Of a stretch of 64,000 nt of DNA, positions 14,362 to 63,150 are shown piece by piece. The translations under genes were made by a program, and so were the position numbers. The notes under the pieces were generated by a model that was given only the letters and a program-made list of their open reading frames with translations, was not told the origin of the DNA and did no database searches. How positions within the stretch are numbered: the stretch's first letter is position 1; the number at the start of each line of letters is the position of its first letter. The DNA lies in the NCBI GenBank assembly GCA_977862235.1, contig OZ374559.1:2418001-2482000 (forward strand), read 5' to 3'. This stretch comes from Dudresnaya verticillata (Eukaryota).

Positions 14362-14598
14362 TAGCCCCGTAAGGGGGCTTAACTAAAACTCATCTGAAAG
14401 GCGACGGTCGAAGAATGAACGGTGGTTAGCAGCCACCGCGACAGATTGAAGTACAAGAGAGGTGAGGTGGGTGAGAAGAGATAGTTTCTCAGCTATCGGC
14501 GAAGTACCCTTCATAGTAGCTAGGAAATTCGCCACGCGCTGAGCCCCCCGATCGAACCCAGAACCAATGACAATTGAAAGAAAAGGGCACCATTTCAT
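14362..14598 (-). mobile_element. RLE non-LTR 3' fragment
   Basis: GAQRVANFLATMKGTSPIAEKLSLLTHLTSLVLQSVAVAANHR...*, followed by hairpin AAGCCCCCTTACGGGGCT. Confidence 0.8.
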
Positions 14599-16000: not shown

Positions 16001-16066
16001 AGAGAGACCTATATTGAAGAACAAGAGAGAAGCCCCTTAAGGGGGCTTAGGAATCAGAGCTACCGT
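16001..16066 (-). mobile_element. 66-bp RLE non-LTR 3'-end insertion with ~11-bp TSD
   Basis: Absent from the mirrored site in the left arm (~5450-5465). Flanked by AAAAGATAAAG (15990-16000) and AAATGATAAAG (16067-16077). Contains the hairpin and (TC)n tail. Confidence 0.85.
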
Positions 16067-16276
16067 AAATGATAAAGTGCAGGGAGAATCAGATATCCTC
16101 GCTGATAGCAACAGATTTTCGCCTTGACACTCGCTTTATCTCGTTTTACAGCCCGAATTCGCTACTTGTTCACCAAGGGAGTGTAGTTGCTTACCTCGTA
16201 GAGCAGCAATGGCACTGAGTCACACCTGAATAGAGTTTCAGAGAAGACATTTGCCGGCAAAAAGTGTTCAAGAAAA

Positions 16277-16286
16277 TGTTATAAGA
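16277..16286 (+). promoter_or_regulatory. Possible TATA box of the Cys-rich gene (mirrored at ~5244-5252)
   Basis: TTATAAGA about 140 nt upstream of the ATG, conserved in both arms. Confidence 0.3.
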
Positions 16287-16420
16287 GGAGAAGATTCTCT
16301 GGAAGGAACGCCAAACAAGGTCAGTGAGAAAAGCAACGCCTTCTTCCCCGACAAGACCGACTCAATCCGAACTCGAGCAGAAATCGGCACCACCAGCTTC
16401 TCTGCAGAGGATTTTCGAAA

Positions 16421-17173
16421 ATGACGAGTTGCCGAACGTCAATGATCCTACTGACCGTACTGGTTCTCGTTTCTAGTACTCTCGCCCTTCGCGACTATGG
16501 TTATTCATACTATACCACCTACTTAGCCAAGAAGTGCAGTCCTGCATCGCACCCGGCATGTTGCGCAGCTTCACCTCCCTGTCAAATCGGGTACTACGCC
16601 CGTGGCTATTGGATTACCGAAAGGGACACTGCAAGCGCAAGCTACAATTGCTACAGCGAATGTAGGCAGCACTATTCCAAGTGCATCCGCACGTGTTCGT
16701 GTGTTGCCCGCACAGATGAGGTTCGAAGTGGGAGTCTCTGCAAGTGCAAGAGGGATCCTCGGGTAACACGCGGATCAATTGTGGCCAGTTGCAACAGGTA
16801 TTGCTACATTGCTTACCGCAAGTGCACCGCAGCCTGTTTGAGCGGGGCGAAATGTCCACTGAAGGCTACTACAAGCTTACTCTGGAGGGGCGTCTACGCT
16901 GGAAAGTGTGGCAGTTATTGTCAGAAATTGCCAATTCCTGTTTCTCCGTCGTTGAAGTGCGCGGCTACAAAAGAATCTGCCAGGCAGGCTACTGCTCAGG
17001 ATGATTTGGAGGCATCGAACAAGAAAGTGGAGGACGAGAAGCACGATGCCCATGGCGATGGAGTGATCTCCGAAGAGGGTGAAATCGATATTGACATGGA
17101 GGAAATCAAAAAGATGGAGGACTTTCCGGAGGAGCTTGCAAAGGACCTGAACGATCTCGGCACAGGCCATTAG
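16421..17173 (+). CDS. Secreted cysteine-rich protein with acidic C-terminal tail, copy 2
   Basis: Intact 250-aa ORF; 4 amino-acid differences from copy 1 (T/A, N/Y, F/I, A/D). Confidence 0.85.
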   Translation: MTSCRTSMILLTVLVLVSSTLALRDYGYSYYTTYLAKKCSPASHPACCAASPPCQIGYYARGYWITERDTASASYNCYSECRQHYSKCIRTCSCVARTDEVRSGSLCKCKRDPRVTRGSIVASCNRYCYIAYRKCTAACLSGAKCPLKATTSLLWRGVYAGKCGSYCQKLPIPVSPSLKCAATKESARQATAQDDLEASNKKVEDEKHDAHGDGVISEEGEIDIDMEEIKKMEDFPEELAKDLNDLGTGH

Positions 17174-18233
17174 TTCAAGTATCAGGTTCAGCATTTCAGC
17201 AGTGGGACTGTCTGGGCGGCACATGTATGGGTCCTCCTAAAAAGCAGGATCAGGAGGATCTAATACAGGGTGTACTTCTGCCCACAATACGTCCATTATA
17301 GCACCTATAATGCTCTCCCGCCTTACCTCTTTAGTATTACAGTATGTCGCGGTTTCTGTTAACAGGCGCAAGCTTGTTGACCACCGCGTTAGTAAGAGTG
17401 TGTATTAAGTCCCCTTAAGGGACTTACTCTAAATCTTGCGATTAAAGGGATGCTTTCTATTGTTCTCCACCTCTGAAACCGCGCAAGACGAAGCTTCCTA
17501 AGCTTCATAAATTTGATAGCTCACACATTGAATTTGTGAATGAAGGACTTCTGATAAATGGGTTTTCACTATTACATGACTCGATATTTAATTTTGCTAT
17601 TGCTACTTCTGCCGATCTTCACAAACTTGGGATCGAGAGAGAATAACTGTATGCAGAACTTGGAGAAATATCAGGAAGCTCCGTAAGGGAGCTTAAGGAG
17701 AGTCATTCACGGGATCTCTTTTGCTCGAGAGAACGACTTTTGTGAGGATACCCACATAAAAAATCCATTAACGCCAACATGTATAGCTCTTTTTAGTGCT
17801 GCAGGCGAGTATCTATTAAAGGCACTATTTCAGATCAAACTGAACAATCGAAAATGAATTGCAGTTTCAGCATTATCTAAGTATTATTTCTCATCGCTTA
17901 GCCCCATTTTTTGAGTAATTAGCAGATTCCCTTTCCCTTTCTCGTTTAGCCCCTTCTTGTCTGAGAAATCAAGTTCAAGGTTTTCGACAAGGGGGTACCG
18001 GTTTCTGAAATTCTTTCAAATGGGAGAATATGTACAGAAGTTGGAACCTTTATGATGTCAGGTGGAGAGTGAGGCTAAGCCGTATTGCAGCTGCACAACT
18101 GGACACGACACCCGGAAATATCCTCGAATGTATGTTATTTTGCTTTGAAGAAATCATCGTAAACCGCGATATTAGAACTGGTATGTTTATGCTCGGAAAT
18201 TTCGGGTTGAATAATTCTCATTCTTTCTCATTC

Positions 18234-23929: not shown

Positions 23930-24560
23930 AACACAGATTTCCGGGTTTTCAGAATCTCTGTCGCGAAGCAGTCTGAAAAATGCTCATGGAATGGCGATTT
24001 ATATATCGCGTTGGACTGGGAAGAGAGAGCTGAGAAGAATGGTGGAATCGGTTCTGGGATAGCATGTACGGTTGCGGAGTTATGGCGTGCTGCATACAGG
24101 GGTGAAATGTCCCGAAACTTTCGCGAAAGTTGGAAAGTTTCGGAATTTCTGGATTAAAATTTAGCCAGAAATTGCGCTGCCCCCTGCTGCCCTTCGGGGG
24201 GCCCCGCCATCGCACCGGCGCCCGTGCTCCAGCATGTCTGGCCCCGCTCGCCTCACCCCCCGGCCTGCCCTGGGCTGGGACCAAGGGCGCAGTGTCGCCC
24301 CGCACGACTGGTACTGCTTGGCCGCCAGGGTAAATCTGGAGGGTAAACCAGTCATGCGAGGCGCTCAAATACTCACGTGCTGGTACCAGTACCACCGGTT
24401 CCCGCACGTGCGCATTATTCCACTCCGGATCCTGGACCAGTGCGGCTCACCTCGCGCAGCAGCTCCACCTCCATCGCGCGTGCCCCGCACCTCCTCTACC
24501 GCCATCGCGCGCGCGCCACACCATCTCTACAGTCATCGCGCATCTCACATCAAACTGCGC
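23930..24560 (+). repeat. Left terminal inverted repeat
   Basis: About 85-90% match (by eye) to rc of 43920-44317 over ~390 bp, with patchier similarity to ~24560/43800. Confidence 0.9.
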
Positions 24561-25566: not shown

Positions 25567-25789
25567 AAGTATCTTTATCATGACTACAAGTCGCACCGCC
25601 TTCGGCGGGGGCGGCGCTGCGCGCCGGTAGACCGCGCCTTCGGCGCGGGACGGCACTGAGTGCTGGTATGATAGTCCCCGCGCCGAAGGCAGGCGCGGGG
25701 TGTAACGACGGTCGCGCGCGCACAAAAGTAAATAACCAAATTAAGAAATCACGCGCACCGCAAAGGTGTCGGCTGTAAGGAGCACCATC

Positions 25790-25809
25790 CAGCCAATCAA
25801 TGGTGAGCT

Positions 25810-25845
<36 letters not shown>

Positions 25846-26755
25846 ATTTTTTCATTGGCGCTGCGGCCGTGTATTTTAGATATAATTTCGGATGCGTAGA
25901 AACTATTGTGGCGCCAAGTGGATTTGTTGGCGCATCGATATACAAATTTGTTTATTTTTCGAGACCTTGCCGGGCTAATACTACCCTTTGGGCGGTCATA
26001 CCCCTACAAATTCTTACTATAAGGTAAACAAGGGCAACGACGCGGCGCTGCGCGCCGCTATGCGCCGTGCAACCGCGCCGAAGGCGCGACTGACTCCTGT
26101 AACCTCTGTGGCACGAAGGGATACTGTGGGATACACGCGGCGCTGCGCGCCGCTATGCGACGTGCAGGCGCGCCGAAGGCGCGACGGACTCCTGTACTCT
26201 CTGTGGCATGATACGATACTGTGGGATACCGGCAACGACGCGGCGTTGCGCGCCGCTATGCGCCGTGCAGCCGCGCCGAAGGCGCGACTGACTCCTGTAA
26301 CCTCTGCGGCACGATGGGATCCTGTGGGATACCGGGGTAGGTTCGGGTCGCTTGATAACGACAGGTGTCTTACAATTTCTTTGTAATGATATTTGTTTCC
26401 AAGCCGTCAGACCGGTGCGGTTTTAATCACATAAATTAGGAATGGAGGCGCACGGCGGGACTGTAAGATCGGTCACTGTAGCGCGGCGGCGCGTGTGTCA
26501 ATTTACTGTCAGAAAATCGGAGCGCACCAATGGGCGCGCGTTGCGGCAAAATGCAGCCAATCGGGTGGCGCGGCTTGGCGGTCAGCCAATGGGGTTGTAG
26601 CTTTGCTGCTGCTGCTGCTGCTGCTGCTGCTGATGCTGCTGCTGCTGATGCTGCTGATGCTGCTGATGCTGCTGCTGCAGCTGCTGCTGCTGCTGAATTT
26701 TTCTATTGGGCGTAAAAGGGTGAACTGGTGATATTTTTAGGCGTGCGTAGAAATA
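25790..26755. repeat. Two (GCT)n blocks with shared flanks, plus ~100-bp GC-rich tandem repeat x3
   Basis: CAGCCAAT..AGCTTT(GCT)n..TTTTT..ATTGG..GCGTAGAAA at ~25790-25905 and ~26583-26755. Units containing GCGCCGAAGGCGCG at 26032-26333. Confidence 0.85.
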
Positions 26756-30388: not shown

Positions 30389-30563
30389 ATTACAGGAGCA
30401 GTAAAATAATGAATGTGATAGTAGTCACAAATTGTTAGGTTGTACACTCCCACTATTAGGACACAGGAAACATACAGGAGCATTACAGGAGCAGTAAAAT
30501 AATGAATGTGATAGTAGTCACAAATTGTTAGGTTGTACACTCCCACTATTAGGACACAGGAAA
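30389..30563. repeat. 93-bp-period tandem duplication
   Basis: ATTACAGGAGCAGTAAAATAATG...GGACACAGGAAA occurs at 30389 and 30482. Confidence 0.95.
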
Positions 30564-30594: not shown

Positions 30595-31467
30595 TCACTC
30601 CAATGCTTCTTTCAGATCTTGTAGCCTTTTCTTCAAGAATGGCACATGAACGCAGCACCCGGTGCTACGTCTAATCAGGTTCGCTAGGCGCCGCGGATTT
30701 TCCTCGGACTTATCTCCATCACCATCCATACATCCGCAGTGAGGGCCCTTCCCTAGGTCCAGCAGAGTCAGCCTTTCTATCCTCCGCCGCTCATAAAATT
30801 TCTTTCCTCTGTAATTGAACTTATAGTTTCCGTCGAAGTATTGCTGAGAGACGGAGAAGTCTGCACTTTCAATTCCGCTGACGGCGTACACCCTTTCATG
30901 AAACGCTTTGAAAATAGACGTGTCATAGAGACGTATTCCTAGCTCTTCCAACCCGACGATACGTATCTGACGCTGTCTTGCCCGACTGACTATACCCACA
31001 AACCTCTCCTCTCCCATACGCTCGACTGCATCCTTTAAGCTCTCTCCTTCCGAGTTCTTAAAATCGTGTAGGTTCAGGGTCTCGCCTTGTGAGTTGTCGA
31101 CTTCTTCTCTCCCTCCAGAAGCGTTGTGCGTGGACATTTTTAACAGTAGTGCTCCACGGAATAGGTGCAACCTCTGGGCATTCGCTGGAATGAGTGCGGG
31201 TGGCTGTGAAACGCCTGGTTTCGAGATTCCAGCGCTCATGATTTGTGCACAAAAGGGTGGAGAGTCCGACTTTAAGGGTGCAGGCATTTCTGCACAAATG
31301 TACAGAGAGGCATGAAGATACGCAGTGTCACCATAGTCACCCGAGACAGTTTCGGTTGGTGCCGAGTTGGCGCCAACGCGTGGTCTAACTTTGAGTGTGG
31401 ATAGCAGCTCAATACAAATTACTATACCCATACAATCGTATGACCTGCGACTCGCAACCATGCGCAT
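30595..31467 (-). CDS. Orphan cargo protein, divergent from the MTase gene
   Basis: 290-codon open frame (likely start MSTHNA at ~31137). C-terminal HCGC...GCCVH cluster could bind metal. Confidence 0.45.
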   Translation of the reverse strand: MRMVASRRSYDCMGIVICIELLSTLKVRPRVGANSAPTETVSGDYGDTAYLHASLYICAEMPAPLKSDSPPFCAQIMSAGISKPGVSQPPALIPANAQRLHLFRGALLLKMSTHNASGGREEVDNSQGETLNLHDFKNSEGESLKDAVERMGEERFVGIVSRARQRQIRIVGLEELGIRLYDTSIFKAFHERVYAVSGIESADFSVSQQYFDGNYKFNYRGKKFYERRRIERLTLLDLGKGPHCGCMDGDGDKSEENPRRLANLIRRSTGCCVHVPFLKKRLQDLKEALE

Positions 31468-31872
31468 GATTTGGTCGTGAATATCTCGCAGCCTGTTTTT
31501 CGGGTAGCATAGGACTACTGTACGGACTGCAGCCCAGATCTCTCTTGTACTGTAGACCCCCTCATAGTAGTCACACCCTGGTCGGGTTTCGCAGTCCTGA
31601 GACTGGAGAGTTTAGTACCGAGACTGTAGCATGTATCTGTCCACGATTGGTATGAGCAAAATCCATGCACAAGCGGATGAGGTCAATGACAGCGGCTGAG
31701 TCACATGGTTTTAATTTAATGCACATTCTTTCTCTCAAGCAGTGGGAAACGTGGTACATGGATGTATGGGACAAGGGCGGAAAGCTGTGTCCGACAGAGG
31801 CAGTAGTCAGAATTCATTCAGACATCTCATCCAGAACTTCGGCTTACCGGTGCACACGATAGCCTGAGAAAT

Positions 31873-34806
31873 ATGCCACCGAAAAAGAAGAAGGGAGTGG
31901 CGGTGAGATCTGTATCCAACCAAGGACAGACCTCATCAGACATAAGAGCGCCTGTATCATCTGGGAATGATAGAGTTCTGTTCGCAGATGTCGTTAATGG
32001 AGCTACGCACAAGCGAGTCGACCCTCGTCAATGTGTCCCGTTGACCTACGTCCGCCCGATCTGCAGATCGGGCGTCGAGCGATTGAAACGCATTTTCCGG
32101 GGGACCGACCGGTACAGTTCAGCGACATTGAAGTCTCCCGTGGAAGGAGCTCCGGACTCTATTGGTTACGTGGCTGGTAGTGATATGCCTGTCGTTGTGC
32201 CATTGACAGGGGCATTGAGAAGCCGTGTGTCCGATTATTTCAGGTCACAAACAAGGAAGGACTGTACGCGTCGTTCCGAGAAAGAAGTTCAGGACATTGT
32301 GAAATCGAGGGGGGAATGGTACGGAGTAGTTGATGGCATGCATAGATTGGCAGCTATTCGTGAGCTGCTTGAAGAAAACTACAACCAGTGGAAAACCTTT
32401 GACTGGCCTGTGCTGGAGCTGAACCCGCGGACCGAGCTGGTGGTCCTGAAGCAATTCGCTAGACATCAGAATCGTAAGCACGAGGCAAACTGCTTCGTGG
32501 AAACTACCCTGTATAACACATTGAAGGGTCTGAAAGATGAGGCTGATCGCCTTCAAGCGGAGGGAAATGGTATCAAGCCGACAGCAAAAGCGGTTGCGTC
32601 CGCTTACGATGGGGGTGTTCATATGCACGAGAACACAGTGAGGCAGACAGCGCAAGTAGCTTTCCGACTAAGTTATCGTGTCATCGATGCGATAGGGGAG
32701 ATAATGGGGGAAGAAATACCGCAGCTTGCATTGGCTTCACGAAATGGAAGAACTGCTAAATCAGTAGCAGACGATGCCCTGATGCCGTCGATGGACTGCC
32801 GGGTTTTCCGGAAGTTTATTACTCTGAACTCACTGAAGGCTGCCGCAGAGTTCATGCGCGCGGGCCAAATGAGTGGCGTGGTACATGATGAGAGTGTGGA
32901 AGTCCAGGTCTCGACACTCTACCGCATTCGAGAAGTATGCAGGAGGAACGGGTTCAGGCCCGTTCTTTACGGGGTCACCAAATCAGAGTTCGGGAAGGCT
33001 AAAGATGCGCTAGCAGATGTTCGCAAATTCGGAGGCCTTCGTGAATCTGAGGACTGGCCGGGTCCCATGGACACGATGCGGACAAATCTTCTGCGATCCC
33101 AAAAGTTTGATGGCGATATCATGCTTAACAGGGGCAACGACACATTGATTTTGCAATGCATTCTGGATATGTACAAGGACTGTTGCCCGGAAGAGGCCCC
33201 CCTGAAGATCCACAAGTACAATTCTGTTAGAGAAAAGAATAGAAAGGAGGGCGACGAGGAGATGGCTTTGGATCAGGAGGATTTGAATGGAATTGCCACG
33301 CGAGTGCAAGATTCGGGGTGTGTGAATTCCGATCAGGTAACGACCGTTCGAAACAAGGACCATCCCCGAGATGGACAGGAAGAACATGAACACGCATCCT
33401 CTCCTTCTGCCAATCTAGAGCCGTTACCTTGCAGTGGGGACCTTGGTTCGACCGGAGACCGTCTCTGTGACGATGCGGAAGATGTGCAGGGGTCCGCTGT
33501 AAAATCTGCAGCGACAGTGAACACGGAAAAGTCAGAGAGGCTGGCTGTACGTGGGGACAAGAATACATCTCACCACAATTTGGAAGCCGACATCCTGAAG
33601 TCGTTCAGAATAACCTGCCATCAGATGCGGTGGCAGATATTCGACAAGAATGTTCGCGAGGGTGTTGGGGACCTATACGACGCAGTTCTTACCGACACAC
33701 CGTATGGAACGCCTGCATCACAGTCCGGTGCAGGGAAGCAGTACGGCAACTATATGAGTGATTCTGAAATATCTGAGCTTGCAGAAATGTGCAGGCAATC
33801 CGTTGTGCCGGGAGGGTGGGTGTTCATGTTCGTGTCCTACCAGACATTCGAACCTATAAGGCAGGCTCTTCTCAAGGCCGGATTCATTTGCCCAACTTAC
33901 GCCTTTTCGATTGCAAAGGATACACACACGGTGCAGGAGAGGCGAGGAAATGACTGTCCCCAAAATGGCCACGAAATTGCTGTCATGGGAAGAGCCCCAG
34001 GACAACACCCCAACGGATTTAAAGTGGATCTTCGAAGCCCGTACCAATTTGTGAAGGCCTCCGAAAAGAGAAAGTTTGCATGCATGTCCCAAATTCCTGT
34101 TTCTAAGAAGAAGCTTCTTAAACCGGGTACCAAATCTCCGGTGCTTACGGAGGAGAAGAATGTTCAGCTGTTAGTGGAATTGTTGACGACCTTCTGCCCT
34201 GAGGGAGGTGCCATTCTGGACATGTATGCCTGAACGATGACAACTGCAATTGCAGCTATGCAGACTGGGAGGAAGTGCACCTGCATAGAGCAGAGTCTAC
34301 AGACGTACAGGCTTGCAGTTGCAGGCTTGAAAAGGATAGCAGGTGATCATGGAAAATTGTCGGATGGGAGGGAAGGAACACCACTGTGTGGTAGAGAGGA
34401 ACAGGCCCTGGGAGAAGACCAGGGAGCAGCTGTGGAAATTCCGCAACAGAAACGGCTGGGGAATGAGGCGGAGAAGGACTCGGATTGTATTGCAGGAGGC
34501 GATGCTGTTGTTCTGTACGTCGGGTAGAACGTTGTTGGGAAGGCAAAAGTCCAATTCGGGGCAACTTCTGAAGAAAAGGTTCGCAAGCATATTCATCTGA
34601 AGCCCCTGTCGGAATACGAAAAGGCAGGACAGGAACTCATTGCGGTTTATGCCTTCGAATGTGATTCATCCTTTACCACGTTTGCGTATCCGTATAACTT
34701 TCATGTTCCGAACGGCCGCCCTGCCACGAGCCTAGGTGGGCTAGACGGATTCTTTGCCTGGGATCTCCATGCGATGGAAGCCCACGCGCGATGCGAGCAG
34801 AAATGA
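31873..34806 (+). pseudogene. ParB-like domain + beta-class N6/N4 DNA methyltransferase fusion (~977 aa, two in-frame stops)
   Basis: N-terminal PPKKKK (NLS-like). ParB/Srx-like YGVVDGMHRLAA. Motif IV DAVLTDTPYG (DPPY-like, 33691). Motif X-I EKNVQLLVELLTTFCPEGGAILDMYA*TMTTAIAAMQTGRKCTCIE. Stops at 34231 and 34525; the frame continues to TGA at 34804-34806. Confidence 0.85.
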
Positions 34807-38642: not shown

Positions 38643-39406
38643 AAGGTAGAGTCTGGAACGTTTGTCTCACGGCGAACTTCAAATTTGCAGACTGGTACTT
38701 GATGCACAGGTTGGTGCATGTTCGCAAACTGGTGAAAAGCCAGCTGTAGCCCACGGCAGCTCATTGGATTGACTTGTCCTTCTTCTGCAAGAAAAATCAC
38801 GGGGTATCGAGACGCAAACATCAACGCTGCCGGCAGCCGGGGTCTTACTTCTCAGCCACTCTCGATGCTATTTCTTATCCTTGACGCCCATCAATACTAC
38901 CCGCTTGTGGTCGCATGGCGGAATAGAGCAGTCTGCAGGGCGTACACTTGCGATACCGAGTACTGCTTCTTGATTGACGGGGACTCGAGATTCGCGACTT
39001 GTCCGTTCTGATTGGTAACATGGCACGCTCGTCTCTCGAATCAGACTGTTTTGTTCGCACTGGCGCTATAGTGTATGGCGGAATGGAGTGGTGCATACAG
39101 AGCGAGAGGCAAGCCCTTCCAATACCAGTCGTTTTAACTGGGATCCGTAGCAACTGTGGGCATGCGCAAGCCTGTCATGCAGAACGCCCCACCGCCTCTG
39201 GAACAGTATTATATCGGTGTCGTTTCAGAAGCGCCCTCGGCCCTCCCGAGTATTTCAGCTCTTCAGAACAAGTAGCGCACAGCTATCGCGCCCTAGCGGG
39301 AACATCGATTTTGCTCCTTCACTTCGCCCGCCCTGAGTGCAAGGAGCATCTTGCACTAGTGCATTGCAAAAGGGTCAGACTCCCCTGCCGAAAGGGGTAG
39401 TAGGAC

Positions 39407-40468
39407 ATGGCCCAAGCCTCATCTGGGCAGGTTTCGAAAGCAGCAAGCGTTCCAGTTCAGAACGACGACGACTTCGGCGATGAGCTGCTTCCCGGAACAA
39501 AGCCCGGCGCACGAGTCATGCTAACTCTCAACGGGGAACACGTTGCTCCAGCAACCCTGCTACGACCTCATGATTTTATTGAGGGTGCCGTTGATCCCAG
39601 TGGGCGATTCAGCACATACCTGCACGGGCGCAACCTTGGGCCTCAACAACGTGATGGAGAAGTATGGGTTGTAGTTCACCTCGTGCGATGCCTCCACAAC
39701 TTCAATTCCTACGAAAGCCCGTTCCAGTACAAACCAGGCAGTACGCCTTGTCCGGAGACACTGAGTCGAATGCAGACTGGAAAACACGCCTGGGACCTAT
39801 TCCAGATTGAGGAGCTCGTAACCATCTACAATACAGAGCGCAGAAAAAGCTCAGGTGCAACTGTTTCCGGAGTGGAAAAACGTGCGGTGGCTGACGCTAA
39901 CCCACCAACACCCCCTCTGCTCAGGGGTCGCAAAACCGCTCCTCACCCAAAACAGCAGCATGGTGCGGAAGAAATGGCAGCGGTGAACAGCCCTTCAACA
40001 CCACCGCCAGAGAAGGGCAATGAAGAGGAAGAAGTCACAAAACTTCTGCAGTACACACCTGTACGCCGGCCACCTATGCGTGAACGACCCCGGAAACCAT
40101 CCAAGAATAACGTCCCGGACGCCTTACCAGTCTCTTCGGCCCCAGTGTCTCTTGAAACCACGACTACACCCGTGGAAGAGAGAGATCCTCGTGTAGGCGT
40201 GACAGACAGAGGCGATCCAGATCTGAAACAAAACTCTGCTAGGGCTGTCGGATCTATTCCTTCTCGAGGAAAAGGAGCATGCGACGAAGAGAACTGTATC
40301 ACGTCCGAGCCATGCCCTGCACACAATGTCAGACATACGCCTGAAAGCAGTTCGGGTTTTAGTAGTGGCGCACCAGAACCGGACCCTGATGCTACCCGGC
40401 GTTGGCCGCGAGTACTAACACAAAGGGTGACGTGGAACGAACGCCAGGTGCTGATGGCTCGGAAATAG
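39407..40468 (+). CDS. Transposon accessory ORF / N-terminal part of the transposase gene
   Basis: 353-aa ORF. The N-terminal globular domain (VMLTLNGEHVA..LHGRNL..PFQY..TL..HAWDL) resembles the MTase C-terminus; the rest is low-complexity. It overlaps the next frame. Confidence 0.6.
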   Translation: MAQASSGQVSKAASVPVQNDDDFGDELLPGTKPGARVMLTLNGEHVAPATLLRPHDFIEGAVDPSGRFSTYLHGRNLGPQQRDGEVWVVVHLVRCLHNFNSYESPFQYKPGSTPCPETLSRMQTGKHAWDLFQIEELVTIYNTERRKSSGATVSGVEKRAVADANPPTPPLLRGRKTAPHPKQQHGAEEMAAVNSPSTPPPEKGNEEEEVTKLLQYTPVRRPPMRERPRKPSKNNVPDALPVSSAPVSLETTTTPVEERDPRVGVTDRGDPDLKQNSARAVGSIPSRGKGACDEENCITSEPCPAHNVRHTPESSSGFSSGAPEPDPDATRRWPRVLTQRVTWNERQVLMARK

Positions 40469-42908
40469 AGAACGGTGAGGAGCAATCAGATGCGCCGACG
40501 TTGGATCTGGTGAGCGACGCAGAGGTGGAAGGTGGAAGTGATGGAATATTAGAAGACGAAGATACTGGAAGCGACCAGGAAATTGAGGACCTCACCACCA
40601 AGGACGCGGATTACGTGCCAAGTGCGACAATTTCACGAAGACGCACGGCAGCATGTGAGGCTGAACGGGTCCCGCAAACTCCCAGAGTTGCTGAGGATGA
40701 GACCAATGGCTCCCGAAAGAGAAGTTACCGCTTCTACGCAATACAAAGAAAGAAGTTGAGGGTTGGTGATACTGCATTGCAAAAGCGTCGCAATGCTGCT
40801 CTGGGAAGGCTTGATGAAGAAGACTGGGGCTCCAAGGAGTGCTGAATGCGGAAGCAATGCTTCAAGAGGGTATCGATTGTGTACATGAAAGCCTAGATTC
40901 GCAAACTGTTGCGTATGGACGCCCATGATCGACGAAACTATTTGCACGGGTTGTTGCAGCGACCGGGATGGAATTATTACTTCGACGGTAAGCCAGTATG
41001 CTACACGTTCCTGTAGACGGCGTTTGGGTTTTCCAGGGACCTGCAATATTCAGTCAAACAGTTTGGTGGAAGCCGACCTATGGAGGTGACAATGCCGTGC
41101 CGTATCATCCTCCGAGTGAGGGCAGGGATAAGATACTAAGTTACCTCAACCGGCTTGCTGAGATAACAGCAAGCTGCATGCCCGACGCAGATGAGAAGCA
41201 TCTGCCGTACTTTGATAAGGCTGCGGTCTACGAGAACTTCCTTCTGGACCAGGATAGACCGTATCCTGTAAAAGACCCGCCTCGACTAAACTACTTCTAC
41301 CACGTCTGGAAGCAGCACCGCAGTGACATAAAAGTCCGCAAAATCCAACGCTTCACAAAGTTTTTGGAGTGTGAAGAATTTCGTGCTGGACTTGCCAGGG
41401 CCGGTACAAACCGCAGGCTTGCGGAGCCGTTCCTGCTCCGTAGAAAGGAACACTACAAGCTGGTTACAAAGGAGAGGGTGTACTACATGGAGAATACGGA
41501 AAAAGCTACTTTGTATCCCTCCGAGTACTGTTCACTGCTAATTGATGGCGCGGAACAGAAATTGTTCGGAGTACCAAAGTTCGTGGTCAGCACAAAGGCT
41601 ACGCGTGGACATGCCATAGCAAACAAATTTGTGGGCGCATTGGAACACGGTTCATTGAAGCACCTATCCCTGTTCGTCATGACAGGAGATTTTGAGACCG
41701 GTGCAAATCACATGATCGAAACAGTCCATCGCCTTCTCACAGTCAAGCATAACCATGGCACTCTGCAGCCTACGCTGTTACTGCAGCTAGACAACTGCAC
41801 CCGGGAGAACAAAAATAAGTACATGCTTTCTTACCTGGAGTGCTTAGTCGCGTGGGGTGTTCTGCATGAAGTGCAGGTTTCCTTTCTCCCAATCGGCCAC
41901 ACCCATTCCGATATCGACCAGGCCTTCAGTTGCACAAGCAAGAGGGTCCGATCAAAAGACATGCCGACCATGTCTTGCCTTCTCCGCGAACTAAGCATGT
42001 CATACACGCCGCGTCCATCGGTGGCAAGGTTGCTGCAGGTAGCCAGCTTTTCCGGGCTGTGTGACAAGTATGCATGTATTGGCAAGACTGAAGCATTCTC
42101 ACACTACATATTCTTTCGAATTACTCGCCAACGTGGAAAGGGCATGGGCAGAAAAGCGAGATTCCGCACGCGATGCCTCGTCAAGATTCAGTGTGGAAAT
42201 GAGTGGAAACCACTTGTAACAGAAGCACGTGGCAGCTCTCTCAAACAGGAAGGCTTCATACTATTCACCCCTGACCGCGTTAGGACGCCAGAGACCATAG
42301 CGCGATGCCCACTTGATATGAAGGAGGTCAATGATCGCATACGTTGCACCGAAGTCCGAGCGCTCAAGGCGTCGCAGATCACCGAACTGGAAAATCTTAG
42401 GGATCACGTCTATAGAGATCGAAACGAACCATTTCACTGGGACTTGGATCACGCCCCGGAGACGAATGGGAAGCTGCGAAGCGATAGTAGACAGGATAGA
42501 GACTCCGAAATGCTTCCGAAGATACCAGAAGAGGAGCAACTACCCGCACAGGACCTAATCTACAGCCACAACAGAATGGTGGCCGTCAATTATGTTCAGG
42601 CGACCGAGCAATGTCCTTTTTACGTGGCAAAAGTGATGGAAGTTGTGAAGGGGGACGATGGAAGGTTTCGAAATTGTTGTTGCGGTGGTATGAAGCCAAG
42701 CACACCGGTAATGTTTTCAGTGCAGCTTACAAACCTTAGTTCTACAAAACCAGGCGCGGGGTCGCAAAGGAATGGGAAGAAGACGTCACCGTCGATTGCG
42801 TACTTGTGGAGTTTGAGTCGCTCACTCGAAATAACCGTCTGCCGGTTGCAGTACAGAAGAAGTTGCGCGAGTGCCTTCACAAACAGTAGCGCCCGCAGCC
42901 ATCTGTAG
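40402..42908 (+). pseudogene. Sola-like DDD transposase, degraded
   Basis: Reading through stops at 40843, 40894 and 41014 gives EC*MRKQCF and YYFDGKPVCYTFL*TAFGFS. Core motifs: LLIDG, LQLDNCTRENKNKY, FLPIGHTHSDIDQAFS. A frameshift at ~42661 extends the C-terminal domain to 42889. Confidence 0.8.
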
Positions 42909-43059
42909 AGCAAGGAATAGATGTAAGTTTACTGAGTCAGAATGGGAAGTATAGAGTGAAGGTGATTAGGGTAATGTGTTTGGGAGCTGCTATGAAACTG
43001 GTTTGTTTTCCTGTTCGTCCAGGACTACCACTTTCTATACTTGAGCAGTAGTGCTAGGA

Positions 43060-43610
43060 CGCGAAATTGGTACTGTGCGAGTACTCGCAATTTGCATTGC
43101 AAGGCAAGGAACGCACACCACGTGGTGTGCGTTCCTTGCCTTGCAATGTAAATAGCGGGGTTTGTTTGTGGTCAGCGTTGCAAAAGCGTTTGAGGCAATG
43201 CACACCGGAAGCCATTTGAAGTTAGAGCGGTTGATGTAGTGGTCCAGCACGTGATGAAGTTTCAGCACTTCAGCAGTTGGCGTCGACGGAAATGAAAACA
43301 CGCGAAATTGTTGTTGTGGAAGTGATTGTTATTTGCCTTCCCATGGCAATACGAGGGCAATGATAACACGCGAAATTGTTGTTGTGCGAGTGATTCCTAT
43401 TTGCCTTGCAATGGCAATACGGGGGTAATGACAACTCGCGAAATTGTTTTCGTGCGAGTGGATTGCGTTGTTTGGCTTGCAATGGCAATAGCGGGGGCTG
43501 TTTGCGCAGCGATGTAGAAGCGATTGAGGCAAGGCGCATCGGCAGCCATGCGCAGGTAGAGCGGTTGGTGTCACTCTGCAGTACCTGATGCAGTTTCAAC
43601 ACTTGAGCAG
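43060..43610. repeat. Subterminal degenerate repeats
   Basis: ACGCGAAATTG(TTGTTGTG)-like units at ~43068, 43300, 43368, 43436. Block ~43135-43275 is repeated at ~43475-43610. Confidence 0.7.
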
Positions 43611-43799: not shown

Positions 43800-44317
43800 G
43801 CAGTCTGATATGACAAGCGAGATGGCGGTAGAGGTGGTGCGGCACAGGCGCCGCACTGGACCCGGAGTGGAATGATGGCCACGAGACGGAGGGGTGATAC
43901 TGGTGAGCCAGGGTAAATCTGGACCAAGCAGTACCAGTCGTGCGGGGCGACACTGCGCCCTTGGTCCCAGCCCACGGCAGGCCGGAGGGTGAGGCGAGCG
44001 GGGCCAGGCATGCTAGAGCACTGGCGCCGGTTCGCTGCCAGGCGCGCCCGGGAGGGCAGCAGGTGGCAGTGCAATTTCTGGCTAAATTTTAATCCAGAAA
44101 TTCCGAAACTTTCCAACCGTTCGCGAAAGTTTCGGAACATTTCACCCCTATATGCAGCACGCCATAACTCCGCAACCATACCTGCTATCCCAAAACCGAT
44201 TCCACCATTATTCTCAGCTCTCTCTTCCCAGTCCAAAGCGATATAGACATCGTCATTCCATGAGAATTTTTCAGACTGATTCGCGACACAGATTCTGAAA
44301 ACCCGGAAATCTGTGTT
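43800..44317 (-). repeat. Right terminal inverted repeat
   Basis: Reverse complement of 23930-24560. Confidence 0.9.
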
Positions 44318-46635: not shown

Positions 46636-49600
46636 TTACATGCCTTGGAACATCAGCAGTTGTAGGCTTTCTGAAACAGAACTCTCTATTTTTGTAAGCG
46701 GGTCGGCAAGATTGATTGTGCCGGGGATCCGTGAAACTCTGTTGAGAGAATGCGTCTCGAAATTATAACGAAGTAGAGCAACATCTGCAGCGATGGACTT
46801 ATCATCTGGAACCCGGAAAGTAGACATGGATGAAAATAAGTCTTTCGAATCAAAGACAATCCATAGATGAACAGGTCCTCTAAGTAAAAAGGAGTATATT
46901 GAAGCAAGTATCTTTCCGTCATCCAATGCCTCACCAGCTGCCATAACCTCTGCCGATGCACTGGACTTTGCAGGACGTCTGATAAGGTGTGAACGCCAAG
47001 TCAGCACATGGAATATTAAGTCCTTCTTCATATCATCAAGCAGTAAACCAGCCAGGTATCCTAATTGACCATGGTTATTGGGTCTAGCTGCATCAGAAAA
47101 GACCACTATAGATGCATCGTAGGAACCATTATGCGGTCCCTTAAAAAGTGTTGTAGACCCAAATTGTTTCAGTTTGCGTACAAGTCCACCTTGTCGCATG
47201 AGTTCGTGTACCGTGGCATTCAACAAGTCAGTTCCTTACTTGCGCCTAAAACGTGTGAGCAAGTGTGGTGAAAGAGACTCAACTTTGTCATCAGCACAGA
47301 TTCGAATCGTTCCTTCCTTCTCTTGAGGTATTGTTAAGCCGAAGAAGGAAAACTCACCAGGTAAATGAACAATGGTTCCACGATTGTATATTTTTCCAAG
47401 TGCTTCGATAAACTGTTGTTTCACGGATTCTTTGCCAGTGCTCAGAAGATCATCAACAACCTTCGCAGCTAGTAATACCAACTCTTATCCGTGCATTAGA
47501 ACAAACAACTGCGGTATGTGAACAACAGAATTCAATCCAAGTTCTAGCAGTGTGGAGTCAGAATGCTTTTGCCATTTGGCATTTGCATTCACTAGACCAT
47601 GGCTAGCTGCCAACAGTAGCCAATAAAAATACCTATGTATACACTCTTGCGGTGGTATCACTATGTATACACTCTTGCAGTGGTATCACATAAAAATCCC
47701 TCTGAGCAGGACCAGATTGCAGAAACGCACTCTTCACATCAATTTTCCTCACGAACCAATTGAAGAGGACCGCAATTGATAGCAGTACACGAAAACCAAC
47801 AGGCGGGCAGGCAGATGAGTCCGTTTTTAGCGATACGCGATCCCGATCCTTGTTCCCATGAGGTGCAATGCGCGCCTTGCATCGTAAAGTTCCACCGTCA
47901 AGTCGTTTCATTTTGTATAAAACATGACAAAACATGACTTGTAATCACATTTGGGGAGCAAGGGACTTTAGATACATGAACCTTCTCACATGTGGCCAAA
48001 ACGTTTGTCTGTTCTTCGATATATGCATTATGCAGAACTGAAGGGGTTGACCTTGAGCAGCACTTAGTAGAAATTCTTTGGATCCAAAGCGTTTGTGGTA
48101 GCATTCCAAATTCCGTTGTTCAGAGTGCAGTAACTCTTGACCAGGTTGAATAACAATATCTGCTGCGCTAGCGTTTCTTGTTTGCGAGCGAGTAATCATT
48201 TGACGTTCATCGTTATTACCATTGTCCATCTCATTGAGCTTTCTGACACCAACACGTCCAGAAGGAGGGTGATACGTAACCATTTCGTCACAGATAAAAG
48301 CTTCGCCAGGGTTAGTTGCGGCTTCTGCATCAACAGCACTTCCATTTTCTTCATCATTGTTCATCCCACTATGTCCATCATCATCAGCATCAGAAGTCAT
48401 CAACTCATCATCATCCATTACATCAACGAGGTTCATCATGCTATTTCGGTCATCATCGCTAGATTCTTCCAAGTGTTCTGCGTCAGTAATACCATCAATA
48501 GCTGAATGTAAAGAATTATCGCAATCATCTATGGCCGTCTGGACCAAATGCGAGAAATCTGCTGAGCTAGGTGGTGCGAAGCGAACATCTTCTACGGCGG
48601 CCTTAATAATTCTTCCAACCTTACCGGGGACGGTAACCGTTTTCGAAGAGGAATCGAAATCTAGAACAGGTTTGGGCAGTGTCCATTTTCCACGTTTTTC
48701 GTGGGGTTGCTTAATAAAGATCTCTACGAGATCACCAACATGTACGGGGATATCTTTCGTAGCCTTTGAACGTAAAATGGAGGTCAATTAGCGGCAAGCA
48801 GAAAGTTCTTCTTGCGCCGTGAGAATATCAGCAGGAAGCTTGACAGGATAATATGTTGGTTGAATAGGACGCGTATAGCCTTTAGCCATCTCATGAGCAG
48901 ATGCAAGGTCATTGCCATAGAGGTCATTCGATTGTGCATCGCTTGTATAACAAGCAAACAACTACTGGCTTCCGGGTTTGCGTGTCGAAGACGTGTAAAG
49001 ATAGATTTGATTTTTCTGTGCTTAGATTCCAGAGAATTATTGCTAGGATGCCTGGGAGGTACTGGACGGAAGGAGGTCCCAATAGTGGAAAGGTGTGATT
49101 TAAACTCTTCAACGTTGAAAGCAGGATCACCTTGAATGGCATTAGGATTCCAAAACTGCGAAACCCACCAGGATTCCAGCACATTGATTGCTTCTCTCAT
49201 TGTCATAGATGATACGCAATCACCAGCAGAGTAACGAGAACTAGAGTCCATAATGTGGTCCACGAACACGAGATCATTAATACCTCTAGACATGGTATTT
49301 AGTGAAACAGCCCGTGACTTGGTCGGTACGTCAGTCTCATGGCAGCTTCGACAAGTTTCCAGTACCTTGGACAGGTATGAAGAGCAATCCTCATTCCAAA
49401 GTTTATTACGTTGTAGCAATGTCTTGATGTCTTGATAATTGGAATGGCCACAGACATGCCGGTGAACCTTGTCGATTACTGCTTTCAACTCAGACCAGGA
49501 GAGAGCAGAACGACTTCCAGATGCAATTTGCAAGCTAGAACATATGAGTGAGCTCCTTGCAGTAAGGAATCTGGAGAAGGGAAGGCAATCTAAAAGATCA

Positions 49601-50939: not shown

Positions 50940-50944
50940 CGCGG

Positions 50945-51588: not shown

Positions 51589-51589
51589 G

Positions 51590-51610
51590 TGGTCTCCCGA
51601 CCTAGAATCG
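51590..51610 (+). promoter_or_regulatory. Primer binding site
   Basis: TGGTCTCCCGACCTAGAATCG, one base after the 5' LTR; complementary to a tRNA-like 3' end (...GGGAGACCA). Confidence 0.7.
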
Positions 51611-63140: not shown

Positions 63141-63150
63141 AAAAAGGGGG
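63141..63150 (+). promoter_or_regulatory. Polypurine tract
   Basis: AAAAAGGGGG three bases before the 3' LTR. Confidence 0.85.

What the first reader, a model, noticed from the sequence alone, without database searches (positions are those of the whole stretch)
31873..34806. ParB-like + beta-class amino-MTase fusion with NLS, hidden by two nonsense codons
Seen: the ORF track splits this gene, but one frame runs 31873-34806. The TGA at 34231 falls exactly on the Gly of the SAM-binding motif (LDMYA*TMTT; GGA>TGA would restore DMYAGT). Motif IV (TDTPY, one base from DPPY) precedes motif X/I. Known: this order defines beta-class N6_N4_Mtase, and DPPY usually goes with 6mA. ParB-nuclease-fold + MTase fusions are familiar from phages. 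Inference: a eukaryote-adapted version (PPKKKK NLS, long acidic linker, extra C-terminal domain) in which the ParB-like DGxHR domain may load on or slide along DNA. This copy is probably dead.
Basis: partly seen in the sequence, partly recalled or inferred. Interest (0 to 1): 0.85.

Follow-up and report, generated by a model that had tools for sequence, protein, structure and literature searches.

The report
Dead transposon ParB-methyltransferase gene copy
This is a broken copy of a roughly 1,000-residue gene that joins a ParB-like DNA-binding fold to a bacterial-type DNA methyltransferase and sits beside an equally broken transposase-like gene; it is likely a jumping-gene accessory gene of a kind recently described in algae, so the copy itself is ordinary but its large family is little studied.

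Summary
One frame runs 31873-34806, interrupted only by TGA (34231) and TAG (34525). Read through with X, it passes Pfam N6_N4_Mtase (39.7 bits, cut-off 26.7) across the TGA and is colinear with intact ~40%-identical relatives that carry DPPY and a Gly where the TGA lies.

AlphaFold models with two fold searches each give a ParB/Srx fold (PadC Z 10.4) and a beta-class amino-methyltransferase fold (CcrM Z 23.6).

New here:
- The gene belongs to a large unnamed family (219 representatives at E<=1e-30).
- Its relatives share exact contig length and source with relatives of the DUF7869 gene 4.6 kb downstream in 9 of 32 records, which points to a conserved two-gene unit.
- That DUF7869 gene is also broken, and a 92%-identical inverted repeat brackets both genes (23930-44317).
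- A ~100-residue domain of unknown fold is shared between the methyltransferase C-terminus and the DUF7869 N-terminus.
- Only 14 of 45 full-length relatives keep a canonical catalytic motif.

ParB-methyltransferase accessory genes in eukaryotic DNA transposons are already in print (Ectocarpus Sola1-1_Ec32, 2025). This is therefore a dead new member of a known kind. Mechanism, target base and host taxon remain inferred or unknown.

The parts
31873..34806 (+). ParB-like / beta-class DNA methyltransferase pseudogene, 977 codons, intronless, two in-frame stops
31876..31893 (+). N-terminal basic patch PPKKKK (res 2-7), possible NLS (inferred only)
   Evidence: relatives printed also start with basic stretches; no test run
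31984..32484 (+). ParB/Srx-fold domain (res 38-204) with DGMHR at res 154-158
   Evidence: model pLDDT 88.5; VIA-wide PadC Z 10.4, KorB 8.6, sulfiredoxin 8.3; Foldseek ParB/Noc prob 0.93-0.96
32485..33282 (+). Helical region (res 205-470) after the ParB/Srx core, possibly HTH-like
   Evidence: pNOB8 ParB-N aligns over 213 residues, model 37-381, Z 8.9; HTH proteins Z 4.2-4.5 on 211-279
33283..33594 (+). Acidic, poorly conserved linker (res about 471-574)
   Evidence: unaligned and variable among relatives
33595..34353 (+). Beta-class amino-methyltransferase domain (res about 575-827)
   Evidence: PF01555 39.7 bits; PDB profile 5hek 1.9e-18; Foldseek CcrM 4.8e-14; VIA CcrM Z 23.6, M.BceJIV 22.3
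33694..33705 (+). Motif IV, DTPY in place of DPPY (Thr codon ACA)
34231..34233 (+). In-frame TGA at the motif I glycine position
   Evidence: Gly in 40 of 45 relatives
34525..34527 (+). In-frame TAG in the first strand of the C-terminal domain
34486..34800 (+). C-terminal ~105-residue beta-rich domain of unknown fold (res 872-976), shared with DUF7869 proteins
   Evidence: no PDB or Pfam match
39404..42908 (+). DUF7869 transposase-like gene, broken: pieces in three frames with in-frame stops
   Evidence: PF25273 3.3e-43; tblastn pieces 39509-39817, 40687-41106, 41109-42883; 3 stops in the middle piece, 1 in the tail
39476..39832 (+). Second copy of the shared ~100-residue domain, at the N-terminus of the DUF7869 gene
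43047..43610 (.). Array of 68-bp units with a 36+36-nt palindrome, just downstream of the DUF7869 gene; candidate protein-binding sites (inferred)
   Evidence: 18-mer 5 copies vs 0.12 expected; 19-mer 4 copies vs 0.04 expected
23930..24510 (.). Left arm of the inverted repeat that brackets both genes (candidate terminal inverted repeat)
   Evidence: 394 bp at 92.4%
43817..44317 (.). Right arm of the inverted repeat

Best explanation
The stretch 31873-34806 is a pseudogene of a ~1,000-residue protein that has a predicted ParB/Srx fold at its N-terminus and a predicted beta-class DNA amino-methyltransferase fold in its C-terminal half; it is likely the accessory gene of a decayed cut-and-paste DNA transposon whose predicted transposase is the DUF7869 gene downstream.

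Shown:
- the two stops and the DTPY substitution;
- the two predicted folds;
- intact relatives with DPPY and Gly;
- decay of the neighbouring DUF7869 gene;
- an inverted repeat around both genes;
- a ~100-residue domain shared by the two gene families.

Inferred from matching contig lengths: the two genes travel together in many other records.

Inferred, for intact family members only:
- The ParB-like module with its helical region would bind repeated or palindromic sites in the element, possibly under nucleotide control.
- It would thereby bring the methyltransferase to the element's own DNA.
- The enzyme would write N6-methyladenine there, and this would tune transposase binding, expression or escape from host silencing.
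- The shared domain would aim either protein at the same target.

This copy would do none of this.
For: Identity:
- PF01555 passes its cut-off only when the TGA is read through.
- The family profile matches M1.HpyAVI at 1.9e-18, M.BceJIV at 1.5e-14 and CcrM at 2.8e-10.
- Fold searches of the C-terminal half give CcrM E 4.8e-14 and Z 23.6.
- The N-terminal model (pLDDT 88.5, pTM 0.86) has ParB/Srx-fold proteins as its top 8 of 48,161 chains: PadC 10.4, pNOB8 ParB-N 8.9, KorB 8.6, Srx 8.3 and 7.0, SerK 7.6, Atu1540 6.6, SbnI 6.5.
- Foldseek independently lists ParB, Noc, Srx and KorB on top.

Decay:
- Two stops and DTPY in the gene.
- The DUF7869 gene lies in three frames with 4 stops.
- The inverted-repeat arms are only 92% alike.

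Linkage:
- 9 of 32 methyltransferase-family records share exact contig length and source with DUF7869-family records: 7926, 8748, 8751, 4334, 5994 Logan; 9936, 7875, 8494 ENA; 7554 JGI.
- The best hits of each search pair with each other.

Shared domain:
- An HMM built only from methyltransferase C-termini finds the N-termini of 6 of 74 DUF7869 proteins, P0164 at 3.5e-25.
- BLASTP gives 31% identity, E 4e-8.

Precedent:
- Ectocarpus Sola1-1_Ec32 carries a 1,104-aa ParB-like plus N4C/N6A methyltransferase gene (PMC12477816, passages read).
- Red-algal Plavaka elements carry ParB and N6A-methylase accessory genes next to inverted-repeat arrays (preprint 10.1101/2025.02.11.637652, passage read).

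Eukaryotic setting:
- An LTR retrotransposon lies in the window.
- No relative was found in the prokaryote or viral collections.
Against: - No element copy other than this one could be read, so the element's ends are not proven. The flanking 4-mers match at only 3 of 4 positions (CTTT/CTTG), which chance gives about 1 time in 20.
- The repeat array lies at the right end only.
- The 8 kb left of the gene has no recognised gene.
- Co-residence on contigs is inferred from equal lengths, not read from the contigs.
- DUF7869 was not shown to be a transposase. It has conserved D183, D265 and D305/D307 but no fold test.
- Only 12 of 45 full-length relatives have DPPY and 14 of 45 a canonical [DNS]PP[YFW]. 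Methyl transfer may therefore not be the family's conserved role; alignment error may inflate this count in distant members.
- In the DGxHR motif only DG is conserved, so nucleotide binding or nuclease activity is uncertain.
- Pfam ParBc does not match: at E<=1 on the three uninterrupted pieces and at E<=1 on the read-through protein. The Foldseek E-values for ParB are weak (0.018 and above).
Confidence: 0.7

Rival explanations
1. The family works mainly without methyl transfer. The methyltransferase fold would serve as a DNA- or SAM-binding scaffold, as in catalytically inactive partners such as METTL14, and the protein would act as a ParB-like clamp or adaptor for the transposase.
For: 31 of 45 full-length, stop-free relatives lack a canonical [DNS]PP[YFW] (variants include EPPS, EPPP, DPPC, HPPS), while 40 of 45 keep the motif I glycine. 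All 46 sequences scanned still match PF01555.
Against: The window's nearest relatives (P0002, P0003, P0004, P0007, P0016, P0023, P0042, P0043) all keep DPPY. Motif calls in distant members depend on alignment quality. No activity data exist either way.
Confidence: 0.2
2. The ParB-like domain acts as a nicking or non-specific nuclease or NTPase that helps transposition or attacks rival DNA, rather than as a site-specific loader. The prokaryotic ParB-methylase Bce_0392 behaves this way.
For: PMC5512222 (passages read) reports nicking endonuclease activity for the Bacillus cereus ParB-methylase and NTPase/DNase activity for other ParB/Srx domains. The window has DGMHR. Fold matches include the nuclease-type member Atu1540 and sulfiredoxins.
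Against: The His and Arg of the motif vary widely among relatives. A 213-residue alignment to the pNOB8 ParB-N DNA-binding module suggests a ParB-type DNA binder with a helical DNA-binding part.
Confidence: 0.15
3. It was a host (domesticated) chromatin gene that has simply died, unrelated to the DUF7869 gene nearby.
For: The left 8 kb of the bracketed region holds nothing recognisable. The ends are unproven.
Against: There are nine matching contig records with DUF7869 relatives. A domain is shared between the two families. The gene is intronless. None of the 30 looked-up family proteins has a name from any source. Both genes are decayed to a similar degree.
Confidence: 0.07
4. The gene is alive: the two stops are sequencing errors, or are read through or recoded.
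For: Only two stops and no frameshift occur in 977 codons. No reads could be laid to check the assembly; no run was listed.
Against: The TGA replaces a Gly conserved in 40 of 45 relatives. The catalytic Pro is also lost. The partner gene has frameshifts and 4 stops. The repeat arms differ by 8%. The DUF7869 core ORF and other ORFs use ordinary stops.
Confidence: 0.05
5. It is a fragment of an integrated giant virus or virophage-like element.
For: Bacterial-type methyltransferases are common in large DNA viruses (general knowledge, recalled).
Against: No relative was found in 2.9 million viral contigs: 71 pattern matches, none confirmed. No capsid, polymerase or packaging domains were seen in the ORFs scanned.
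Confidence: 0.03

Closest known systems
ParB-like + DNA methyltransferase accessory protein of Sola1-1_Ec32, a 21.5-kb DNA transposon of Ectocarpus (Dinatale et al. 2025, PMC12477816; passages read)
   Same: A single ~1,000-1,100-residue protein with an N-terminal ParB-like domain and an N4C/N6A-type methyltransferase domain. It is carried as a non-transposase gene inside a large cut-and-paste transposon and is proposed to bind and mark its own element.
   Different: That gene lies on the strand opposite the transposase, whereas here both genes are on the + strand. I could not obtain its sequence, so direct homology is untested. Whether DUF7869 is the Sola1 transposase is untested. The window copy is dead and its host taxon is unknown.
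Plavaka accessory genes PAG2 (N6-adenine methylase + SET) and PAG3 (ParB + 2OG oxygenase) of the red alga Bostrychia (preprint 10.1101/2025.02.11.637652; one passage read)
   Same: ParB-type and adenine-methylase domains are used as transposon accessory functions, with arrays of inverted repeats next to the ParB gene.
   Different: There the ParB and methylase domains are on separate proteins with other partners, and the transposase is of the Plavaka (KDZ) type.
Prokaryotic and phage ParB-methylase fusions, e.g. Bacillus cereus Bce_0392 (as cited in PMC5512222; passages read)
   Same: Same domain order: ParB/Srx domain followed by an adenine methylase.
   Different: Those are short bacterial proteins without the ~270-residue helical extension, the acidic linkers, the basic N-terminus or the C-terminal shared domain. 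No relative of the window protein was confirmed in 185,579 prokaryote genomes.
Beta-class DNA N6-adenine methyltransferases M1.HpyAVI, M.BceJIV, CcrM, M.RsrI, M.MboIIA
   Same: Same fold and motif order: Z 19.7-23.6 and profile E down to 1.9e-18. Nearest relatives carry DPPY.
   Different: Sequence identity is only 13-18%. Motif I reads D-x-Y-A-G-T-x-T-T rather than the usual G-S-G-T-T form seen in the aligned chains. The domain is embedded in a multidomain eukaryote-style protein.
Bdelloid rotifer N4CMT (PDB 8s9m/8s9n)
   Same: A bacterial-type beta-class amino-methyltransferase working in a eukaryote: Foldseek E 5e-10, Z 19.1.
   Different: N4CMT is a single-copy host gene with a chromodomain (recalled). 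It has no ParB domain and no transposase partner.

Membership tests
Beta-class N6/N4 DNA amino-methyltransferases (Pfam PF01555 N6_N4_Mtase) | Profile score above the curated cut-off | tested here: met
   39.7 bits against 26.7 when both stops are read as X, but only 16 bits for the uninterrupted 786-residue ORF. All 46 of 46 sequences scanned (the window protein plus 45 relatives) match at E<=1, best 3.6e-16.
Beta-class N6/N4 DNA amino-methyltransferases (Pfam PF01555 N6_N4_Mtase) | Motif IV precedes motifs X and I (beta permutation) on a Rossmann-like fold | tested here: met
   Motif IV lies at res 608-611 and motif I at res 783-790. Fold matches: CcrM Z 23.6, M.BceJIV 22.3, M1.HpyAVI 21.6, MboIIA 21.6, RsrI 19.7, PvuII 19.0.
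Beta-class N6/N4 DNA amino-methyltransferases (Pfam PF01555 N6_N4_Mtase) | Catalytic tetrapeptide (D/N/S)PP(Y/F/W) | tested here: not met
   The window has DTPY. The motif is met in the nearest relatives but in only 14 of 45 full-length relatives.
Beta-class N6/N4 DNA amino-methyltransferases (Pfam PF01555 N6_N4_Mtase) | Intact SAM-binding motif I glycine | tested here: not met
   The window has TGA at this codon (34231). 40 of 45 relatives have Gly.
Beta-class N6/N4 DNA amino-methyltransferases (Pfam PF01555 N6_N4_Mtase) | SAM-dependent methylation of adenine N6 or cytosine N4 in DNA | not testable with these tools
6mA is predicted only from DPPY in relatives and from the nearest solved enzymes being adenine-specific.
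ParB/Srx superfamily | ParB/Srx alpha+beta fold | tested here: met
   The top 8 of 48,161 chains are all ParB/Srx-fold proteins, Z 10.4 to 6.5. Foldseek lists ParB, Noc, Srx and KorB on top, prob up to 0.96 but E 0.018 or weaker.
ParB/Srx superfamily | Sequence match to Pfam ParBc (PF02195) | tested here: not met
   There was no ParBc hit at E<=1 for the three uninterrupted pieces of the window protein or for the read-through protein, nor at E<=0.01. ParBc is not among the 25 families shown of the 39 matched across the 46 sequences. The only related hit is DndB, in 3 of 46 sequences, best E 5.2e-4, below its cut-off.
ParB/Srx superfamily | Conserved DGxHR / GxxR-type active-site loop | tested here: met
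   The window has DGMHR at 154-158. D154 and G155 are conserved in at least 90% of 72 sequences. The His and Arg vary.
ParB/Srx superfamily | Helix-turn-helix DNA-binding domain after the N-terminal domain, as in chromosomal ParB | tested here: inconclusive
   pNOB8 ParB-N aligns over 213 residues (Z 8.9). HTH proteins match res 211-279 at only Z 4.2-4.5.
ParB/Srx superfamily | CTP or ATP binding, parS-like site binding, sliding or spreading | not testable with these tools
Candidate sites at 43047-43610 are only repeats.
Transposon-borne ParB-methyltransferase accessory genes (Ectocarpus Sola1-1_Ec32 type) | ParB-like and N4C/N6A methyltransferase domains in one ~1,000-residue protein | tested here: met
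Transposon-borne ParB-methyltransferase accessory genes (Ectocarpus Sola1-1_Ec32 type) | Carried inside a DNA transposon together with a transposase gene | tested here: inconclusive
   A DUF7869 gene lies 4.6 kb downstream and an inverted repeat brackets both genes. 9 of 32 family records share contig length and source with DUF7869 records. No second copy or clear target-site duplication was seen, and DUF7869 is not proven to be a transposase.
Transposon-borne ParB-methyltransferase accessory genes (Ectocarpus Sola1-1_Ec32 type) | Sequence homology to the Ectocarpus protein; transposase of the Sola1 superfamily | not tested
   Neither the Ectocarpus protein nor a Sola profile was available in the tools. 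The paper's figures and supplements were not seen.

The most novel reading that the evidence does not exclude
The ParB-methyltransferase gene and the DUF7869 gene form an obligate two-gene module of a very large, unnamed group of eukaryotic DNA transposons. The ParB-like module clamps onto arrays in the element. The methyltransferase either writes 6mA on the element's own DNA or, in the many lineages without DPPY, has become a non-catalytic DNA clamp. A previously undescribed ~100-residue domain, which moves between the two proteins and was present on exactly one partner in the five inferred pairs checked, is the module that aims them at a common target.
Probability: 0.25. Interest if true: 0.7.

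Novelty: new member of a known kind. Interest (0 to 1): 0.4.

Why it matters
How eukaryotes acquire and use bacterial-type DNA adenine or N4-cytosine methyltransferases is an open question, and whether 6mA in eukaryotic DNA is real and who writes it is still disputed. A transposon that carries its own ParB-guided methyltransferase would be a self-marking mobile element and a natural source of programmable, site-loaded DNA methylation.

This window adds only a dead copy. The work around it shows four things:
- The family is large: 219 representatives at E<=1e-30.
- None of the 30 family proteins looked up carries a name in any source.
- The family is probably tied to one transposase-like family.
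- It shares a targeting-type domain with that family, and it often lacks the catalytic motif.

These points would shape any experimental study of intact members.

Tried and rejected
- Whole-genome search: no genome is held for this window, so copy number and other copies could not be examined.
- Relatives' DNA: scans found nothing confirmable in viral contigs (71 pattern matches), metagenome contigs (243 and 21 pattern matches) or prokaryote genome contigs (94).
- Sequencing runs: none was listed and there was no RNA holder, so expression and assembly errors could not be checked.
- Third homologue search, with a 46-sequence alignment: it returned the same 4 proteins as and gave no taxon names.
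- Names and taxa: none of the 30 methyltransferase-family proteins or the 34 DUF7869-family proteins looked up carries a name. The host taxon stays unknown. Rfam found nothing in the window. Fifteen further window ORFs had no Pfam hit.
- Protein Atlas: the N-terminal half scored nearest to fungal DUF3723 clusters (0.95, 167 shared features). DUF3723 did not appear in the Pfam scans at E<=1: for the pieces, and for the read-through protein and among the 25 of 39 families shown for the 46 sequences. I kept it as an untested lead only.
- Shared C-terminal domain: there was no PDB sequence match (best E 0.79) and no consistent Pfam match (12 different families, each hit by 1 of 19 members).
- DUF7869: no PDB sequence match and no paper holds the term.
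- Shorter inverted repeats closer to the two genes: none found.
- Complex prediction was not used. In the five inferred gene pairs only one partner carries the shared domain, which argues against domain-domain pairing as the general role, so a pass would not have changed my odds much.
- Literature: searches found the algal reports. They found no report of this gene pair with DUF7869, nor of the shared domain. Iyer et al. 2011 (cited in PMC12477816) is not in the library and was not read.
Full report
**1. The observation**

Frame 1 from the ATG at 31873 runs 786 codons to TGA (34231-34233), then 97 codons to TAG (34525-34527), then 91 codons to a terminal TGA at 34804-34806. The Thr of DTPY is ACA, one base from a Pro codon.

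The read-through is supported by homology, not only by an open frame:
- PF01555 (N6_N4_Mtase) scores 16 bits on the 786-residue ORF alone.
- It scores 39.7 bits (cut-off 26.7, E 6.7e-10) on residues 603-815 once both stops are read as X.
- tblastn with an intact relative gives a single 963-column alignment at 40% identity through both stops.

**2. Relatives**

A word-indexed search found 4 relatives at 39-46% identity. Three are full length (944-1010 aa) and colinear with the whole read-through protein, including the C-terminal ~100 residues. They have LTDPPYG/LIDPPYG where the window has LTDTPYG, and DMYAGT/DVYGGT/DIYAGT where the window has DMYA*T.

An exhaustive profile search of 1.84 billion representatives found 2,134 proteins at E<=0.001, 741 at <=1e-10 and 219 at <=1e-30. 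None of the 30 family proteins looked up carries a name from any source; all come from Logan, ENA, JGI or NCBI assemblies on contigs of 3.3-14.2 kb. No relative was confirmed in viral contigs, JGI metagenome contigs or one genome each of 185,579 prokaryote species.

**3. The methyltransferase half**

- A 72-sequence family profile matches solved beta-class enzymes by sequence: M1.HpyAVI 1.9e-18, M.BceJIV 1.5e-14, CcrM 2.8e-10, then RsrI, PvuII and MboIIA.
- The AlphaFold model of residues 560-977 (51-row alignment, pLDDT 85.5, pTM 0.74) matches CcrM at Foldseek E 4.8e-14, with 194 chains at E<=0.001.
- VIA-align, which does not depend on Foldseek, gives CcrM Z 23.6, M.BceJIV 22.3, M1.HpyAVI 21.6, MboIIA 21.6, RsrI 19.7, rotifer N4CMT 19.1 and PvuII 19.0.

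Motif IV (608-611) precedes motif I (783-790), which is the beta order. The nearest solved enzymes are adenine-specific and the nearest relatives have DPPY, so N6-adenine is the predicted target. This is inference.

**4. The N-terminal half**

Pfam ParBc does not match. The only sequence hint is DndB, a ParB/Srx-superfamily family, at E 0.19-0.24 on residues 152-170 of the window protein, and in 3 of 46 sequences scanned (best 5.2e-4).

The model of residues 1-476 (72-row alignment) is confident: pLDDT 88.5, pTM 0.86.
- Foldseek against the PDB lists ParB (6sdk, E 0.018, prob 0.96), Noc, Myxococcus ParB, sulfiredoxin, pNOB8 ParB-N and KorB on top, but nothing at E<=0.001.
- VIA-align against 48,161 representative chains puts eight ParB/Srx-fold proteins in ranks 1-8: PadC Z 10.4 (rmsd 2.7, 97 residues, model 38-204), pNOB8 ParB-N 8.9 (213 residues, model 37-381), KorB 8.6, plant sulfiredoxin 8.3, serine kinase SerK 7.6, human sulfiredoxin 7.0, Atu1540 6.6 and SbnI 6.5.

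Two searches that work differently agree, so I accept the ParB/Srx fold for residues ~38-204. The long match to pNOB8 ParB-N and weak HTH matches on 211-279 suggest a ParB-like DNA-binding extension, but this is inconclusive. Across 72 relatives, D154 and G155 are at least 90% conserved and R61 and R310 are invariant. The His and Arg of DGxHR vary widely.

**5. Linkers, basic N-terminus and C-terminal domain**

Residues ~471-574 and 833-865 are variable or low-confidence. Many relatives also begin with basic stretches. An NLS is plausible but untested.

The last ~105 residues form a confident beta-rich domain with invariant V, L, P and W and near-invariant H, Y, G and D. It has no PDB sequence match and no consistent Pfam match. 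Its fold was not tested on its own.

**6. Context: a second broken gene and an inverted repeat**

The window looks eukaryotic:
- It has few long ORFs.
- It holds an LTR retrotransposon with RVT_1, RNase H and Integrase_H2C2 domains and 95.7%-identical LTRs at 50941-51588 and 63150-63798.

On the same strand, 4.6 kb downstream of the finding, lies a DUF7869 gene (PF25273, E 3.3e-43).
- Its 74 relatives are 35-49% identical and mostly 700-1,000 aa.
- tblastn with them shows the window gene in three frames: 39509-39817, 40687-41106 and 41109-42883.
- There are 3 in-frame stops in the middle piece and 1 in the tail, so this gene is broken too.
- The family has invariant acidic residues in DGAxQ, DNCxRENKN and GHTHxDIDQ motifs. 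That is compatible with a DDE-type transposase, but it is not a fold test.

A 394-580-bp inverted repeat (23930-24510 against 44317-43817, 92% identity) brackets both genes. The flanking 4-mers are CTTT and CTTG, a weak 3-of-4 match. No shorter inverted repeat lies nearer the genes.

Just downstream of the DUF7869 gene is an array of 68-bp units with a 36+36-nt perfect-spacing palindrome (43047-43610). It includes 5 copies of an 18-mer (0.12 expected) and 4 copies of a 19-mer (0.04 expected). It occurs at this end only.

**7. Linkage of the two gene families elsewhere**

I could not read relatives' contigs. However, the tables give contig length and source for each protein. Of 32 methyltransferase-family records, 9 share exact contig length and source with a DUF7869-family record:

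| Contig length | Source | Methyltransferase-family protein | DUF7869-family protein |
|---|---|---|---|
| 7926 | Logan | P0002 | P0162 |
| 8748 | Logan | P0006 | P0164 |
| 8751 | Logan | P0007 | P0176 |
| 4334 | Logan | P0009 | P0186 |
| 9936 | ENA | P0158 | P0165 |
| 7875 | ENA | P0003 | P0254 |
| 8494 | ENA | P0155 | P0256 |
| 7554 | JGI | P0156 | P0253 |
| 5994 | Logan | P0159 | P0258 |

The best hit of one search pairs with the best hit of the other. Chance would give well under one match, so I infer that the two genes sit together on these contigs as a conserved two-gene unit of about 8-10 kb or more. The other 23 records had no match among the DUF7869 records I could see.

**8. A shared domain**

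An HMM built only from C-terminal domains of methyltransferase-family proteins finds the N-termini of 6 of 74 DUF7869 relatives: P0164 at 3.5e-25, then P0209, P0202, P0211, P0207 and P0227. BLASTP of P0164 residues 17-109 against window residues 879-970 gives 31% identity, E 4e-8. The window's DUF7869 gene has its own copy at 39476-39832.

In the five inferred gene pairs, exactly one partner carries the domain: the methyltransferase in four and the DUF7869 protein in one. The window has it on both. This suggests a targeting module needed once per element. That is inference.

**9. Catalytic motif across the family**

Among 45 full-length relatives, 12 have DPPY and 14 have a canonical [DNS]PP[YFW]. 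The rest show EPPS, EPPP, DPPC, HPPS, DIPY and others, while 40 of 45 keep the motif I glycine. All 46 sequences scanned still match PF01555. Alignment error may inflate the count in distant members. Even so, many stop-free members probably do not transfer methyl groups in the usual way. The window's own subclade keeps DPPY.

**10. What is known**

- Dinatale et al. 2025 (PMC12477816; passages and reference list read, figures and supplements not seen) describe a 1,104-aa ParB-like plus N4C/N6A methyltransferase gene in the 21.5-kb Sola1-1_Ec32 transposon of Ectocarpus. [quoted passage not shown]
- The Bostrychia preprint (one passage read) describes Plavaka accessory genes with ParB and N6-adenine methylase domains beside inverted-repeat arrays.
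- Iyer et al. 2015 (PMC4738411, section 8 and passages read) list six group-1 eukaryotic methylase clades. None has this architecture. A ParB-type HTH fused to a Dam-type enzyme is noted in chlorophytes and chytrids.
- Iyer et al. 2017 (PMC5512222, passages read) cite a bacterial ParB-methylase with nicking activity.
- Two earlier notes of this scan describe similar two-gene elements in other genomes. I treat them as leads. My linkage evidence was obtained before I saw them.
- No paper in the library holds 'DUF7869'.

**11. Verdict**

What it is: a decayed copy of a transposon-type ParB-methyltransferase gene, next to its decayed DUF7869 partner. The kind is already in print, so novelty is modest.

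The added points are the size of the family, the inferred conserved pairing with DUF7869, the shared domain and the frequent loss of DPPY.

Mechanism, target base, element ends, transposase class and host taxon remain inferred or unknown.

Noticed in passing
window 50941-63798: LTR retrotransposon. Direct repeats 50941-51588 and 63150-63798 are 95.7% identical. RVT_1, RT_RNaseH_2 and Integrase_H2C2 domains sit in ORFs 56786-57853 and 57874-58608. The coding part is split over several ORFs, so it is probably decayed.
   Followed up: partly
window 3559-9186 and 11549-18100: Large inverted duplication of about 5.6 kb per arm, 82-97.5% identical in blocks. Each arm holds a 250-aa ORF (4356-5108 minus strand, 16421-17173 plus strand) without a Pfam match.
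   Followed up: no
window 30595-31611 (-): A 338-codon stop-free frame (290 aa from its ATG), divergent from the methyltransferase gene, with its start about 260 bp upstream of 31873. It has no Pfam match. It could be a third element gene or noise.
   Followed up: partly
window 30389-30563: Two perfect 82-nt copies 93 nt apart (100% identity). This is a very recent tandem duplication in otherwise decayed sequence.
   Followed up: no
window 25611-26352: GC-rich 95-103-bp tandem units, each carrying a near-palindromic 19-mer (GCGGCGCTGCGCGCCGCTA-like, 4 copies), and flanked by TGC microsatellites at 25811 and 26604. They are unrelated in sequence to the right-hand array.
   Followed up: no
window 47945-49887 (-): Two adjacent ORFs of 280 and 367 aa on the minus strand, abutting at 48784-48787, without a Pfam match. 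They may be one gene split by a frameshift.
   Followed up: no
relatives P0013 and P0019 (C-termini): Some methyltransferase-family members end in Cys/His-rich, zinc-finger-like tails instead of the shared beta-rich domain. The C-terminal module therefore seems exchangeable.
   Followed up: no
Protein Atlas, residues 1-470 of the window protein: The nearest feature clusters are fungal DUF3723 proteins (score 0.95, 167 of 256 features). From memory, DUF3723 is an accessory gene of fungal Starship elements. Pfam scans gave no DUF3723 hit, so a possible distant link between ParB-like transposon accessory proteins is untested.
   Followed up: partly
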